Source: Candidatus Cloacimonadales bacterium | Lineage (GTDB): Bacteria > Cloacimonadota > Cloacimonadia > Cloacimonadales > JAFGVF01 | Length of the DNA stretch: 64,000 nt | Reading direction: 5' to 3' | NCBI GenBank assembly: GCA_963677815.1 | Contig: OY782499.1 | Span: forward strand, 613,252-677,251 | Shown here: one piece after another, positions 60,806-64,000 of the stretch | Layout of the letters: every line of letters begins with the position of its first letter | How positions within the stretch are numbered: position 1 is the stretch's first letter | Made by a program: the position numbers and the translations under genes | The notes under the pieces: generated by a model | What the model was told of the DNA's origin: nothing | Databases searched by the model: none | What the model saw: only the letters and a program-made list of their open reading frames with translations

Positions 60806-60816
60806 ATAAGAAGTCA

Positions 60817-61150
60817 TTATCCACAAGTTATCCACATAGAAAAATCTTTTAAATATTCTATTGATTACTAAAGCATATATACAAGTATTTCAGACACTTA
60901 ACTAAAAAGCAAACAATAAACATTAAATAAAATATTCAGGAAGGTACTCAACTTCTCCACAGGGGTGGATAAATAAATGTGAATAAATAAGGATAAAGAA
61001 GAAAATAAGATTGATATACTCTAAAAGAAGTGGATAAATAAGGATAATTAAGAGAAGTATCCACAAGATATCCCCAATTACAATAGTTTTTAAGAAGCAT
61101 ATTTTTCAGATTCTTATAATTTCACTTGACGACTTATCCATATATCCACA
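60817..61150. promoter_or_regulatory. Second cluster of DnaA-box-like 9-mers between the NtrC-like gene and the lipoprotein gene
   Basis: TTATCCACA is at 60817 and 60828 (both perfect, 11-bp spacing). GTATCCACA at 61057 pairs with ATATCCCCA at 61068. TTATCCATA is at 61134 and ATATCCACA at 61142. Opposite-strand GGTGGATAA is at 60964, TGTGAATAA at 60978 and AGTGGATAA at 61029. Confidence 0.5.
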
Positions 61151-61196: not shown

Positions 61197-62435
61197 ATGT
61201 ATTTAATGATTAAGAGACTTATATTTTTGGCAACTTGTACACTCCTTCTATTTGCTTGTAATAACAAAGAAAATAATATTGGAATTACTCAATCTGATCT
61301 AATACCAATGGCTGGACAAATTGATTCTTTTTCTCAAGAATTTTCCTTCAGAGATAGTATTTCTGTTAATGGAGAAAACTATAAACTCTTAGTAGCAAAT
61401 ACCCAAGAAGTAGAATCTCAAGCTATTGTTTCTTTTGCTTATTTACCAGATAATGTTGAGTATATAGCTGATGCTACTTTAACTTTTTATACTGATCTAA
61501 AGCCTGAAGGTGATATGGAATTCAAAATTAAGAGAATCGAACAAGATTATTTAGAATCTCAAGCTACTTGGCAAGAAGCTAGCGAGGGAGAAACTTGGGA
61601 TGAAGATTTAATATTTGAAAGTATAACACCAGCTGTAACATTAACTGATACTGTTGCAGGAAGAATAGATTCCTTAGTATTTAATCTTCCTGTTGAAGAA
61701 ATAAAAACTTGGACAGAAACAGATCAAGCACTTTTCACACTTATGGTTTATACTGAGTCAAACAATTATATAGAGCTTTATTCATCCGAAAACTCTAAAA
61801 ATCCTATATTGAACTTCAAATATATGCTTAACAGTGAAACAGAAGAAAAGGAATATAGTAGAAATGCTTTCAAGGATACCTATATTGTTAACGACAAGCT
61901 GGGATTAGAGCAAGTATGGGCTCCTATGATTTCTTTAAGTAATATGACGCCTAAACGAGCATTTTTGAAGTTTGACCTTGATACAAATTTAATTTTAAAT
62001 CAAGAAGGGGATAATTTAACTCAATTCCAAAAAGATCATCTTACTGTTAATAGTGCTTACATCAGATTGTATGTAAAAAACTTTTCTTTCTTTGATGGTA
62101 ATAGATCTGTTTATATCACACCTTACAGAGTAATGGAAGAAGTTACTGATATAGCTATGATTGATAAAATTAATAATTTAGAATATTTAAATAATACTGG
62201 TACTAGTGTGGCAACTATTGAATCTGCTCCTGATTCTACTCAGTATGTTGATGTTAAAATAACCCCAATTTTGCAAGGCTTTATCTCTGGTGAAAAAGAT
62301 AATTTCGGTATTGTTATGACCTCTTCTTATCAATCAACTAACTTTGATGCTATTGAATTTTATGGAAAAGAGGCAGAAGATGAGAGTTTAAGACCTAAAG
62401 TACATTTCGTTTATACTTTACCTATGGAAGATTGA
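61197..62435 (+). CDS. Lipoprotein of unknown function
   Basis: 412 aa. Has a lipobox (LLLFAC). I recognise no catalytic motif. The start could be the internal MIKRL at 61206. Confidence 0.6.
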   Translation: MYLMIKRLIFLATCTLLLFACNNKENNIGITQSDLIPMAGQIDSFSQEFSFRDSISVNGENYKLLVANTQEVESQAIVSFAYLPDNVEYIADATLTFYTDLKPEGDMEFKIKRIEQDYLESQATWQEASEGETWDEDLIFESITPAVTLTDTVAGRIDSLVFNLPVEEIKTWTETDQALFTLMVYTESNNYIELYSSENSKNPILNFKYMLNSETEEKEYSRNAFKDTYIVNDKLGLEQVWAPMISLSNMTPKRAFLKFDLDTNLILNQEGDNLTQFQKDHLTVNSAYIRLYVKNFSFFDGNRSVYITPYRVMEEVTDIAMIDKINNLEYLNNTGTSVATIESAPDSTQYVDVKITPILQGFISGEKDNFGIVMTSSYQSTNFDAIEFYGKEAEDESLRPKVHFVYTLPMED

Positions 62436-62448
62436 AGACAGGAAGGAA

Positions 62449-63196
62449 GAAGATTCTTTACACTAATTAACACGAATTAGAGCGAATTTCACGAATAAGA
62501 AGAAGTCTATCCACGGATTTCACTAATTACACGAATTACTTTTTGCTAAAAAGGGATTGTTCGTTTTTGGTCGAGGTATTCCAGTCCGTGGTTACGCAGA
62601 TGCCAAGATATAGATAAATCCCCCTTTGAGAGGGGGACGACAGGGGGGGGGCCTTTGTTTCCTTAACACAGAGTTTAGAAAAGAAGATTCTTTACGCGAA
62701 TTAACTCGAATTAGAGCGAATTTCACGAATAAGAAGAAATCTATCCACGGATTTCACTAATTACACGAATTACTTTTTGCTAAAAGTGTTAGTCTATGGG
62801 GAGCAGGATTCTAGCCTGTGGTTACGCAGATGCAAAGATATAGATAAATCCCCCTTTGAGAGGGGGACGACAGGGGGGGCCTTTGTTTCCTTAACACAGA
62901 GTTTAGAAAAGAAGATTCTTTACACTAATTAACTCGAATTAGAACGAATTTCACGAATAAGAAGAAGTCTATCCACGGATTTCACTAATTACACGAATTA
63001 CTTTTTGCTAAAAAGGGATTGTTGGTTTTTGGTCGCGGGATTCCAGTTCGCTATTACGCAGGTGACATGGATATAGATAAATCCCCCTTTGGGAGGGGGA
63101 AGACAGGGGGAGTTCCTTTGTTTTCTTTAACACAGAGTTTAGAAAAGAAGATTCTTTACGCGAATTAACTCGAATTAGAACGAATTTCACGAATTT
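62449..63196 (+). repeat. Tandem array of 3.2 copies of a ~228-236 bp composite unit (CGAAT-rich segment + H motif + family F hairpin)
   Basis: The motif gaagattcttta starts at 62449, 62683, 62911 and 63147. Each full unit ends with ...ggttacgcagRtg...atagataaatccccctttgagagggggacgacaggggg...tttcc. Confidence 0.95.
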
Positions 63197-63351
63197 ACTG
63201 GTTTAAAGGTTTGTAAGATATTGGAAGATTAATAGATAAAGAAAAGTGAGTGATTATATTTATATGTTTTATAATCATCCATTAGTTAGAAAAAAAAATT
63301 ATCCCGAAGGGATAACAGCCTGTGGTTACGCAGATGTCAAGATATAGATAA

Positions 63352-63388
63352 ATCCCCCTTTGAGAGGGGGAAAATAGGGGGTGTTTCC
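63352..63388 (+). repeat. Family F hairpin, left inverted repeat flanking DUF559 copy 2
   Basis: The sequence atccccctttgagagggggaaaatagggggtgtttcc is the exact reverse complement of 63761-63797. It ends 4 nt before ATG 63393. Confidence 0.95.
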
Positions 63389-63392
63389 ATAT

Positions 63393-63758
63393 ATGTTAAC
63401 AAAAGTACCTTATAGGTTACCTTATAATAAAGATTTAAAAGAAAAAGCTAGGTTTTTAAGAATTAATCAAACTAATGCTGAAAAGAAGCTATGGTATCAA
63501 TATTTATCACCTCACAAAGAAAAATTTAATAGACAGAAAATAATAGATAATTTTATTGTTGATTTTTATTGTGCTAGGCATAAATTAGTAATTGAAATTG
63601 ATGGTGAAACACATAATAGTGATAGATCTTATAATTATGATAAAAGAAGAACTCAAGTTCTAAATTCTTATGGATTAATAGTTATAAGATTTTCGAATTA
63701 CGAAATATATAATGAATTTGATAGTGTGATAGAAAGAATTGAAGAATATTTGAAATGA
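63393..63758 (+). CDS. DUF559 (Vsr-like / PD-(D/E)xK endonuclease fold) protein, copy 2
   Basis: Has QTNAEKKLWYQYL...FIVDFYCARHKLVIEIDGETH...LIVIRFSNYEI. By eye it is about 40% identical to copy 1 over the core. I chose ATG 63393; the track uses GTG 63381, which lies inside the flanking repeat. Ends with a TGA stop at 63756-63758. Confidence 0.85.
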   Translation: MLTKVPYRLPYNKDLKEKARFLRINQTNAEKKLWYQYLSPHKEKFNRQKIIDNFIVDFYCARHKLVIEIDGETHNSDRSYNYDKRRTQVLNSYGLIVIRFSNYEIYNEFDSVIERIEEYLK

Positions 63759-63760
63759 TA

Positions 63761-63797
63761 GGAAACACCCCCTATTTTCCCCCTCTCAAAGGGGGAT
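63761..63797 (-). repeat. Family F hairpin, right inverted repeat flanking DUF559 copy 2
   Basis: The sequence ggaaacaccccctattttccccctctcaaagggggat begins 2 nt after the TGA stop (63756-63758). Confidence 0.95.
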
Positions 63798-63822
63798 GTG
63801 GAGGAAAGGAAGCAAAACATAT

Positions 63823-64000
63823 ATGAAAAAAAATATTTTACTAGTAATAATATTAATGATAGCTTTAATATCTAGTGCTGAAGTGTTAGATAGGATAATT
63901 GCTAAAGTGGGTAATGATATAATATTGCAGTCTGATTTAGAAAAACAAATGATGCAGATGCAAAGTGCTGGAATGTTAGATGAATCAATGACAGAGCAAG
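63823..64000 (+). CDS. N-terminal fragment of a SurA-like periplasmic chaperone/PPIase; 3' end lies off-window
   Basis: ATG 63823 is preceded by ggaggaaagga. The translation MKKNILLVIILMIALISSAEVLDRIIAKVGNDIILQSDLEKQ resembles the SurA N-terminal domain (LDRIVAVVG...IL.SDL). Confidence 0.55.
   Translation, partial: MKKNILLVIILMIALISSAEVLDRIIAKVGNDIILQSDLEKQMMQMQSAGMLDESMTEQ

What the first reader, a model, noticed from the sequence alone, without database searches (positions are those of the whole stretch)
62449..63196. A ~234-bp tandem array with helically phased CGAAT pentamers, ending in hairpin repeats, immediately upstream of DUF559 copy 2
There are 3.2 units, starting at 62449, 62683, 62911 and 63147.

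In each unit the first ~90 bp carries C(G/T)(G/A)AT pentamers. Within unit 2, cgaat begins at offsets 15, 25, 35 and 44, then cggat at 66, ctaat at 75 and cgaat at 84. This 9-10 bp phasing places all sites on one face of the helix, as in iterons or nucleoprotein-filament and bent-DNA sites.

Each unit then has a variable ~35-bp segment, the H motif (attcYagYc.gtggttacgcagRtg, shared with the array at 2231-2690) and a family F hairpin. The G-tract after the F hairpin varies between units (9, 7 and 5 G). The array begins 14 nt after the stop of the lipoprotein gene.
Basis: seen in the sequence. Interest (0 to 1): 0.6.

Follow-up and report, generated by a model that had tools for sequence, protein, structure and literature searches.

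The report
Mosaic repeat array after lipoprotein gene
The 750-bp tandem array is real, but it is a lineage-specific amplification of short repeat modules that litter the gaps between genes in these uncultured Cloacimonadales bacteria. Its "CGAAT" module is not an iteron or bent-DNA site; it is an order-wide repeat of unknown function that sits just after stop codons, pointing the same way as the gene before it.

Summary
Observation confirmed. Window 62447-63196 holds 3.2 tandem units (234, 228, 236 and 52 nt). Each full unit has seven C(G/T)(G/A)AT pentamers at identical offsets, spaced 9-10 bp.

Interpretation only partly supported. Each unit is a mosaic of short modules (A, B, C/H, F hairpin, T) that also occur separately across this 2.88-Mb Cloacimonadales genome and its relatives. 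The final 52-nt "0.2 unit" is exactly one module A. This fits amplification by unequal recombination between two A copies.

The syntenic gap between the lipoprotein gene and surA is about 35 nt in one congener and about 150 nt in another. The closest relative carries a different 132-nt array there.

Module A is a roughly 48-nt block with sharp edges. The triple-CGAAT pattern is found in 27 of 81 Cloacimonadales genomes. In this genome, 11 of 12 loci start 16-87 nt after a co-oriented stop codon (chance expectation 12%).

Predicted curvature is average. The sites drift about 150° around the helix. No replication gene is nearby. DUF559 presence does not track the motif.

Earlier notes of this scan on other DNA of the same genome already described this module repertoire. 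The function of module A is not resolved. I think a role at the 3' end of the transcript is most likely.

The parts
61197..62435 (+). Upstream gene: 412-aa lipoprotein-like protein (Disaggr_repeat/CBM96); its stop codon TGA is at 62433-62435
62447..63196 (+). Tandem array: three full units (62447-62680, 62681-62908, 62909-63144) plus a terminal 52-nt piece that equals one module A
62447..62505 (+). Module A, unit 1 (AAGAAGATTCTTTACA + four CGAAT-type pentamers spaced 10, 10 and 9 bp). Further copies at 62681-62739, 62909-62967 and the terminal solo copy at 63145-63196
   Evidence: Copies occur elsewhere in the genome and in relatives
62506..62550 (+). Module B, unit 1 (TCTATCCACGGATTTCACTAATTACACGAATTAC + half of an AT-rich hairpin; three more pentamers at 9-bp spacing). 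Copies at 62740-62784 and 62968-63012
   Evidence: The TCTATCCAC part is dispersed separately
62551..62617 (+). Variable segment C plus H motif, unit 1. This looks like a decayed REP-type hairpin; its intact form in the relative G003 is CGCGGG-ATTCCAG-CCCGCG-GTTACGCAG. Copies at 62785-62847 and 63013-63080
62618..62651 (+). F hairpin, unit 1 (ATCCCCCT-loop-AGGGGGA..GGGGG, followed by a G run of 9). Copies at 62848-62879 (7 G) and 63081-63114 (5 G). All three point the same way and look like terminators only on the minus strand
62652..62680 (+). Module T, unit 1 (CCTTTGTTTCCTTAACACAGAGTTTAGAA; a member of the dispersed CACAGAG minisatellite family). Copies at 62880-62908 and 63115-63144
63298..63316 (.). 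Short hairpin TTATCCCGAAGGGATAA; the same hairpin occurs at the syntenic site in G004, with a variant in G002
63312..63388 (+). H + F copy next to DUF559 (81-88% identical to the array copies). Positions 63352-63388 form the left arm of the perfect 37-nt inverted repeat
63381..63758 (+). DUF559 gene, copy 2 (125 aa)
63761..63797 (-). Right arm of the 37-nt inverted repeat (an F hairpin in the opposite orientation)
63796..64000 (+). Start of the surA-like PPIase gene, the conserved downstream neighbour used as the synteny anchor

Best explanation
**Layer 1 (largely shown).** The array is a lineage-specific tandem amplification of a mosaic of short intergenic repeat modules. It most likely arose by unequal recombination or slippage between two copies of module A that flanked a B-C/H-F-T segment. 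That would produce n copies of [A-B-C/H-F-T] followed by one solo A, which is the structure seen. The array sits in a hypervariable gap that also holds a DUF559 cassette bracketed by inverted F hairpins. I see no reason to assign the array a function as an array.

**Layer 2 (inferred).** Module A is a roughly 48-nt block built from four 10-bp repeats, which explains the phasing. It is found across the order Cloacimonadales and is tied to gene 3' ends in a fixed orientation. The most likely reading is that it is transcribed as part of the upstream gene's 3' untranslated region and is recognised there, or selected there, in single-stranded, orientation-dependent form. One candidate role is a multi-site platform for an RNA-binding protein or RNase. 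It also serves as portable homology for recombination.

My confidence is about 0.85 for layer 1 and about 0.4 for layer 2.
For: **Mosaic and dispersal**
- Modules A, B, H, F and T each occur separately elsewhere in the genome.
- Every congener has many copies.
- Other tandem arrays built around module A exist in G003: 132 nt x 2.2 at the syntenic site and about 350 nt x 3 after another gene.

**Amplification**
- The final 52 nt of the array match module A only.

**Hypervariable site**
- The gap between the lipoprotein gene and surA is about 35 nt (G005), about 150 nt (G006), about 815-965 nt with DUF559 (G002, G004), about 2.5 kb with an IS3 element and no DUF559 (G003), and 1361 nt here.

**Module A as a unit**
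- In 81 copies the conserved block runs from -13 to +35 with sharp edges, and the flanks are random.
- Within the array, A+B is 96-98% identical between units, against 59-89% for C and 85-94% for H-F-T.

**Link to 3' ends**
- All 20 copies in this genome are intergenic.
- In 11 of 12 loci the first copy starts 16-87 nt after a co-oriented stop codon. Random expectation is 12%, binomial P = 8e-10.
- Two such loci lie between convergent genes, so they cannot be promoters.
- At one locus the module lies between the stop codon and a canonical terminator hairpin.
- The upstream genes are functionally unrelated.
- The orientation bias recurs in G003 (28 co-oriented, 12 opposite, 1 unassigned) and in a different family, G069 (18 co-oriented, 7 opposite).

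**Order-wide presence**
- 27 of 81 genomes and 18 of 42 genera carry the pattern. The pentamers are kept while the spacers differ between lineages.
Against: - There are no transcript data.
- At one locus the module lies after the terminator.
- The orientation bias in G003 and G069 is weaker and rests on crude ORF calls.
- No RNA structure or Rfam family was found, and no binding factor is identified.
- The patchy distribution (18 of 42 genera) fits a selfish mobile module as well as it fits a host function.
- Only 5 of 12 loci are shared with the closest relative.
- A function for the array itself, such as multiplied binding sites, cannot be excluded.
Confidence: 0.6

Rival explanations
1. The pentamers form a double-stranded DNA binding array, like iterons or a partition site. 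An oligomeric DNA-binding protein (winged-helix, ribbon-helix-helix or similar) would coat the 9-10-bp direct repeats, and the tandem array would multiply the sites for a nucleoprotein complex.
For: - Three to seven direct repeats spaced 9-10 bp are typical of such sites.
- The pentamers are the best-conserved positions, and they persist across families while the spacers change.
- A+B is the most conserved part of the array units.
Against: - No rep, par or other initiator gene lies nearby.
- The motif occurs at 12 scattered intergenic loci, almost always just after a co-oriented stop codon. A double-stranded DNA operator has no obvious reason for that placement.
- The sites drift about 150° around the helix, and predicted curvature is average.
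- The array is missing from the same site in two congeners.
- DUF559 presence does not track the motif.
Confidence: 0.12
2. Module A is purely selfish or neutral DNA. It would be a non-autonomous mobile module copied by an unidentified enzyme, or minisatellite DNA spread by recombination, with no benefit to the host. Its position after stop codons would only reflect where insertions are tolerated or targeted.
For: - Copy number varies widely between congeners, from 4 to 118 hits.
- The distribution across genera is patchy.
- Many copies sit at contig ends in fragmented assemblies.
- Only 5 of 12 loci are shared with G003, and a decayed copy is seen in G002.
- Earlier notes of this scan read the module repertoire as selfish repeats.
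Against: - Module A has no terminal inverted repeats or hairpin.
- No transposase is linked to it. The Y1 transposase genes are not adjacent, and the three tyrosine-recombinase matches lie more than 880 kb from the array.
- Tolerance alone predicts both orientations, yet 12 of 13 paired CAC[GT]AAT sites are co-oriented, while the CACAGAG module shows no bias.
- The pentamers are conserved at the level of the order.
Confidence: 0.2
3. The array is the promoter, operator or leader region that controls DUF559 and/or the downstream surA gene.
For: - It lies directly upstream of DUF559 in the same orientation.
- The scan lists a few sigma-70-like hexamer pairs in the region.
Against: - Promoter-like hits are not clearly enriched: 11 found against 6.8 ± 2.7 in shuffles.
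- surA is expressed without the array in G005 and G006.
- Module A elsewhere follows genes and can sit between convergent genes.
- G002 and G004 have DUF559 at this site without the array.
Confidence: 0.05

Closest known systems
BIMEs (bacterial interspersed mosaic elements: REP palindromic units plus linker motifs) of enterobacteria. Defined in PMC2817692 and PMC3333891; REP325, a tandem cluster of six repeats, is described in PMC4550694.
   Same: - Extragenic mosaic of a G+C-rich hairpin module (F) plus several conserved non-palindromic linker modules.
- Found after gene ends and often in tandem clusters.
- Copy number and composition change quickly between relatives.
- In E. coli one linker motif carries a protein-binding (IHF) site, which is a possible analogy for module A.
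   Different: - In BIMEs the REPs alternate in orientation (abstract of PMC2817692). Here all three F hairpins point the same way.
- The dominant conserved module here is a non-palindromic run of 10-bp direct repeats with a strict orientation relative to the upstream gene. This is not a described BIME feature.
- No RAYT gene adjoins this array.
Neisseria intergenic mosaic elements (NIMEs: RS repeat units flanked by dRS3 inverted repeats). Recalled from memory; not checked in a paper here.
   Same: Arrays of 50-150-bp repeat units downstream of genes, built from a shared repertoire and thought to act as recombination substrates at variable loci.
   Different: - The lineage and the sequences differ.
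- No dRS3-like 20-bp inverted repeat frames each unit.
- The direct-repeat pentamer module has no NIME counterpart that I know of.
Plasmid and phage iterons, and partition-site repeats such as parC
   Same: Several short direct repeats spaced about one helical turn apart.
   Different: - The repeats here are 9-10 bp, not 17-22 bp.
- There is no neighbouring rep or par gene.
- The sites are chromosomal, dispersed at many gene ends, and tied in orientation to the upstream gene.
REPtron-like DUF559-plus-hairpin partnership proposed by earlier notes of this scan (e1-3519315, e1-3519314)
   Same: The array's F hairpins belong to the family that brackets DUF559 copy 2 as a perfect 37-nt inverted repeat. 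Each unit therefore carries an extra copy of the cassette's left flank (H+F).
   Different: The CGAAT module is independent of DUF559. Their distributions across 81 genomes do not track each other, and most module A loci have no DUF559 nearby.

Membership tests
Iteron-type replication origin | Direct repeats next to a cognate initiator (rep) gene and an AT-rich unwinding region, forming one functional origin | tested here: not met
   The neighbours are a lipoprotein gene, DUF559, surA, pgpA and an NtrC-like regulator, with no Rep gene. The motif lies at 12 separate chromosomal loci. There is no match to plasmids or phages.
Iteron-type replication origin | Repeats phased with the helix so that the bound proteins lie on one face | tested here: inconclusive
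   Spacings of 9-10 bp are real. At 10.5 bp per turn they rotate about 86° over four sites and about 150° over seven. This is arithmetic; the helical repeat in vivo is unknown.
Intrinsically bent DNA (phased A-tracts) | Predicted curvature well above the genomic background | tested here: not met
   The wedge-model end-to-end ratio is 0.96-0.97, the 33rd-57th percentile of 1500 noncoding 90-mers. The A6N4 control gives 0.63. The parameters were recalled from memory, so this is indicative only.
BIME (REP mosaic) | Extragenic mosaic of REP hairpins and conserved linker motifs | tested here: met
   The F hairpin family has about 30 genomic copies. Linker modules A, B, H and T are dispersed separately.
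BIME (REP mosaic) | Regularly spaced REPs in alternating orientation | tested here: not met
   All three F hairpins of the array, and the one next to DUF559, are direct copies. Only the copy after DUF559 is inverted.
BIME (REP mosaic) | Cognate RAYT (Y1 transposase) flanked by the same REPs | tested here: inconclusive
   There are four Y1_Tnp matches in the genome, none near this array. The nearest F copies lie about 4 kb from two of them. I did not examine their flanks.
MITE | Terminal inverted repeats and target-site duplication framing a unit of defined length | tested here: not met
   The logo from 81 module A copies shows a block with sharp edges but no inverted termini. The purine-rich AAGAAGA found on both sides is also the lead-in of other modules, so it is not a clear target-site duplication.
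Integron cassette array (ORF + attC) | Nearby IntI integrase, and an imperfect-palindrome attC after each ORF | tested here: not met
   The genome has only three tyrosine-recombinase matches, all more than 880 kb from the array. Module A is not palindromic.
Structured non-coding RNA | Match to a curated family, or a conserved structure with covariation | tested here: not met
   There are no Rfam matches in the window or in 8 loci of G069. The unit folds no better than shuffles (z = -1.5 and -2.1). Eleven G069 composites give no consensus structure.
3'-UTR cis element | Located in the transcript between the stop codon and the transcript end, in sense orientation | not testable with these tools

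The most novel reading that the evidence does not exclude
The run of three to four CACGAATT repeats spaced 9-10 nt is a previously undescribed gene-end cis element of Cloacimonadales. It would be read in one orientation, in the 3' UTR RNA or on one DNA strand, by an oligomeric factor that affects transcript ends, stability or operon polarity. Tandem arrays such as this one would be amplified forms of it.
Probability: 0.2. Interest if true: 0.7.

Novelty: new variant of a known kind. Interest (0 to 1): 0.35.

Why it matters
Taken alone, the array is one more repeat cluster in a repeat-rich genome and needs no special explanation. The follow-up did turn up one useful observation. A short, non-palindromic, internally periodic motif is shared by many Cloacimonadales families, and in this genome it sits almost always just downstream of stop codons in the sense orientation. 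REP, BIME and MITE elements are defined by hairpins or inverted ends, and this module has neither.

If a factor reads the motif, it would mark gene ends in a phylum for which transcription termination and mRNA decay signals have, as far as I know, not been studied. It would be directly testable with metatranscriptomes from anaerobic digesters. The result also removes DUF559 as a candidate partner of the pentamers. Finally, it shows that the gap between the lipoprotein gene and surA is a hotspot where cassettes, IS elements and arrays turn over between species.

Tried and rejected
- **Metagenome scans.** Two scans, one for the junction between the gene and the array and one for the unit-to-unit junction, found nothing. 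No strain comparison was possible.
- **Phages and plasmids.** blastn of the array gave no match.
- **RNA gene.** There was no Rfam hit, and neither a single-sequence fold nor an alignment fold gave significant structure.
- **Bent DNA.** The curvature model gave average values.
- **"CAC every 9-10 nt" superfamily.** A regex for a general periodic-CAC motif found only 2 genomic hits, so I dropped the idea.
- **DnaA-box reading of module B.** TCTATCCAC matches the DnaA-box consensus at 7 of 9 positions. TATCCAC is not enriched after stop codons (7 of 50 noncoding copies), so I did not pursue this.
- **DUF559 as partner.** There is no co-distribution.
- **Integron-like cassettes and NusG-paralog (ops-like) targets.** No integrase or NusG-like gene lies near the module-rich 667-735 kb region.
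- **Rho-loading site.** The C-to-G ratio is too balanced, by inspection of the sequence. I did not test this formally.
- **Literature.** Searches for Cloacimonas intergenic repeats, and for DUF559 with inverted repeats, found nothing relevant.
- **Void call.** One search was a mistaken call and gave no result.

Full report
**1. What is there**

The window is positions 613252-677251 of a single-contig genome of 2.88 Mb with 32.5% G+C. Relatives that carry the same motif are named in public records as Candidatus Cloacimonadales or Cloacimonadota MAGs.

Tandem Repeats Finder reports an array at 62447-63194 with period 228, 3.2 copies and 88% matches. I place the units at 62447-62680 (234 nt), 62681-62908 (228), 62909-63144 (236) and 63145-63196 (52).

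C[GT][AG]AT pentamers lie at identical offsets (14, 24, 34, 43, 65, 74, 83) in units 1-3. There are 25 pentamers with 18 spacings of 9-10 bp, against 0.02 such spacings in 500 dinucleotide shuffles.

- the H motif shared with the array at 2231-2690;
- the F hairpin in every unit;
- the G runs of 9, 7 and 5;
- the start of the array 11-13 nt after the lipoprotein gene's TGA.

**2. The unit is a mosaic of dispersed modules**

blastn of one unit against the genome, and of its parts separately, shows that each part has its own copies elsewhere:

| Module | Sequence | Copies elsewhere |
|---|---|---|
| A | AAGAAGATTCTTTACA + four CGAAT pentamers | about 13, clustered at 675.7-679 kb and 728-735 kb, plus scattered sites |
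| B | TCTATCCACGGATTTCAC... | 8 |
| H | ATTCYAGCC..GGTTACGCAG | a few |
| F | ATCCCCCT-loop-AGGGGGA-N5-GGGGG | about 30 |
| T | CCTTAACACAGAG... | 5 |

The triple pattern CGAAT-N4-6-CGAAT-N4-6-CGAAT occurs 23 times in this genome, although CGAAT itself occurs fewer than 2000 times on both strands.

A profile of 81 distinct copies from five genomes shows a conserved block from -13 to +35 relative to the first pentamer, about 48 nt long. The edges are abrupt and the flanks are unrelated. Most spacer positions are conserved as well, so the module is inherited as a whole.

Noncoding DNA here is rich in other short-period tandem modules. Of 142 short-period tandem repeats (period 7-12 bp), 86 lie in the 11% of the genome that is noncoding. 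A 10-bp phase is therefore what a tandemly built module would show anyway.

**3. How the array arose**

The last, partial unit (52 nt) is module A and nothing else. The structure is [A-B-C/H-F-T] x 3 followed by A. This is the expected product of unequal recombination or slippage between two A copies that flanked a B-to-T segment.

Identity between units differs by segment:
- A+B: 96-98%
- C: 59-89%
- H-F-T: 85-94%

The C/H segment looks like a decayed form of a REP-type hairpin that is intact in the relative G003 (CGCGGG-ATTCCAG-CCCGCG-GTTACGCAG). In the array units it no longer folds better than shuffles.

**4. The site is hypervariable**

I used the lipoprotein gene and the surA-like gene as anchors in all six congeners and read the gaps between them.

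| Genome | Gap | Content |
|---|---|---|
| G005 | about 35 nt | empty |
| G006 | about 150 nt | one F hairpin in terminator orientation |
| G002 | about 815 nt | DUF559 bracketed by F hairpins; a decayed module A; the DUF559 match contains a TGA stop |
| G004 | about 965 nt | DUF559 bracketed by F hairpins; a B-like module |
| G003 (closest relative; SurA 86% identical) | about 2.5 kb | no DUF559; a different tandem array (132 nt x 2.2, 99% matches) that also contains module A; an IS3-family insertion |
| G001 | contig break | assembly breaks inside the gap; B, T and A modules follow the stop codon |
| This genome | 1361 nt | the array plus DUF559 |

G003 also has a tandem array of about 350 nt x 3 built around module A after another gene. 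Arrays around module A therefore form repeatedly, and this particular array is specific to its lineage.

**5. Module A is tied to gene ends**

All 20 merged sites in this genome are intergenic. They fall in 12 intergenic regions. In 11 of these the first copy starts 16-87 nt after the stop codon of a gene on the same strand. Random noncoding positions with a random strand do so 12% of the time, giving a binomial P of 8e-10.

Further points:
- Of 13 paired CAC[GT]AAT sites, 12 are co-oriented with the upstream gene. The CACAGAG module shows no bias (5 co-oriented, 6 opposite).
- Two loci lie between convergent genes, so the module is not a promoter element there.
- The upstream genes include a thiolase, ABC-type ATPases, pgpA, a sugar transferase, a PD-(D/E)XK gene, a kinase-like gene, a peptidase and a DNA methyltransferase. 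They have no common function.
- At one locus the order is stop codon, module, then a canonical terminator (GCCCTGC...GCAGGGCTTTTT). At another locus the terminator comes first. At a third, the gene's TAA lies inside a B module.
- The bias recurs in G003 (28 co-oriented, 12 opposite, 1 unassigned) and in G069 (18 co-oriented, 7 opposite), but it is weaker there and rests on crude ORF calls.
- Five of the 12 loci are shared with orthologous sites in G003.

**6. Range**

The triple pattern is present in all 7 genomes of the genus, with 4 to 118 hits each and 0-1 hits for the reversed-pattern control. Across the order it is present in 27 of 81 genomes and 18 of 42 genera.

In G069, which belongs to a different family with higher G+C, 24 copies of TTTCCA-CGAATTACACGAATTAACACGAAT form the 3' end of a composite of about 135 nt. 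That composite has no consensus RNA structure.

Between lineages the pentamer plus a following T is kept while the spacers differ. This is the strongest hint that something reads the pentamers.

**7.

- **One face of the helix.** At 10.5 bp per turn the observed spacings rotate successive sites by about 86° across the first four and about 150° across all seven. This is arithmetic.
- **Bent DNA.** A wedge-model calculation gives end-to-end ratios of 0.96-0.97 for the 90-bp A+B segments, the 33rd-57th percentile of noncoding 90-mers. A phased A6 control gives 0.63. I recalled the parameters from memory, so this result is indicative only.
- **Iteron or origin.** No rep or par gene is nearby, and there is no match to phages or plasmids.
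- **DUF559 as binder.** G020, G069 and G077 have 16-24 motif hits and no stand-alone DUF559. G013 has 11 stand-alone DUF559 matches and no motif hit.
- **NtrC-like regulator.** There is no evidence for or against it.
- **F hairpins.** The F hairpins of the array match a terminator pattern only on the minus strand.

**8. Reading**

Shown or largely shown: the array is a local amplification of a module mosaic at a hotspot. It has not been shown to be a conserved functional array.

Inferred: module A acts, or is tolerated, only in the sense orientation just after genes. The simplest account is that it is part of the 3' UTR and is recognised in single-stranded form. A selfish, targeted module is the main alternative, and a duplex-DNA binding array is the less likely one.

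All DUF559, PDDEXK_3 and 23S_rRNA_IVP genes of the genome lie at 667-734 kb, as do 13 of the 20 module A copies. One PDDEXK_3 gene has module A on both sides. This fits a role for the modules as portable homology in a fast-changing envelope and polysaccharide region.

**9. Relation to known elements and to earlier notes**

The closest described kind is the BIME type of mosaic repeat (PMC2817692, PMC3333891, PMC4550694). The alternating-orientation rule for BIMEs is not met, and module A is not palindromic.

Earlier notes of this scan on other parts of the same genome describe the same situation:
- an interlinked repertoire of short modules filling intergenic gaps (e1-2448994);
- repeats that abut or supply stop codons (e1-2449001);
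- REP-type arrays (e1-3519318);
- the DUF559-plus-hairpin cassettes (e1-3519315, e1-3519314).

What this report adds is the amplification model, the comparison of the syntenic site across congeners, the order-wide range of module A and its bias to positions after stop codons, and the negative results for curvature and for a DUF559 link.

**10. Limits**

- ORF calls are crude.
- Related genomes are not independent samples.
- The function of module A remains unproven.

Noticed in passing
G000:C1:1039177 region (outside the window): The last codons and the stop codon of a 341-aa ATPase-like gene (TCT ATC CAC TAA) lie inside a module B copy (TCTATCCACTAATTTCAC). A repeat module therefore supplies the gene's stop codon. 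In G001 the lipoprotein gene's TAA is followed directly by TCTATCCAC.
   Followed up: partly
window 60813-60836: AAGAAGTCATTATCCACAAGTTATCCACA starts 8 nt after the stop codon of the NtrC-like gene, and its first TTATCCACA box starts 12 nt after that stop. It shares the AAGAAGTC..TATCCAC lead-in with module B. The 'DnaA-box pair' noted earlier (e1-3519324) may belong to the same class of modules found after stop codons rather than being a DnaA titration site.
   Followed up: partly
L061 (G003:C1:688400-691400) and L101 (G003:C1:1652800-1662500): In the closest relative, the same IS3-family element (orfA/orfB) is inserted at two different loci, each time directly after a copy of the 63-nt G+C-rich repeat (...GGGGAGAGTAAACATGTGTCGTTC). 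This suggests the IS targets that repeat.
   Followed up: no
G000:C1:667-734 kb (window 54018 onwards and downstream; L031, L032): All DUF559 (2), PDDEXK_3 (3) and 23S_rRNA_IVP (2) genes of the genome lie within about 67 kb of envelope and polysaccharide genes. Several are flanked on both sides by direct copies of a short-period module: PDDEXK_3 at 731730-732104 by module A, and the IVP gene at about 733.65-734.05 kb by AGATTGAG / AGACTGAG runs.
   Followed up: partly
G032 and G018 (same order): The control pattern (TAAGC-N4-6-TAAGC-N4-6-TAAGC, the query read backwards) has 33 hits in G032 and 4 in G018, and 0-2 in every other genome searched. Another lineage therefore appears to carry a different periodic pentamer repeat.
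   Followed up: no
window 62618-63114 and 63352-63388, minus strand: All F hairpins of the array fit an intrinsic-terminator pattern (stem followed by a T-rich tail) only when read on the minus strand: 9 terminator-like sites against 0.8 expected. They would therefore block antisense transcription, not sense transcription. In G006 a single F hairpin in the opposite orientation follows the lipoprotein gene like an ordinary terminator.
   Followed up: partly
many loci: Several different modules (A, T, the TAACTGGGAATGCGGG repeat, and B) begin with the same purine-rich lead-in AAGAAGAT(T/C)CT. This may be a common joint or recombination point between modules.
   Followed up: no
G000:C1:2846877-2847040 (outside the window): Four head-to-tail F hairpins with a 42-nt period. 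G004 has two tandem F copies directly upstream of its syntenic DUF559. F therefore also amplifies on its own.
   Followed up: no
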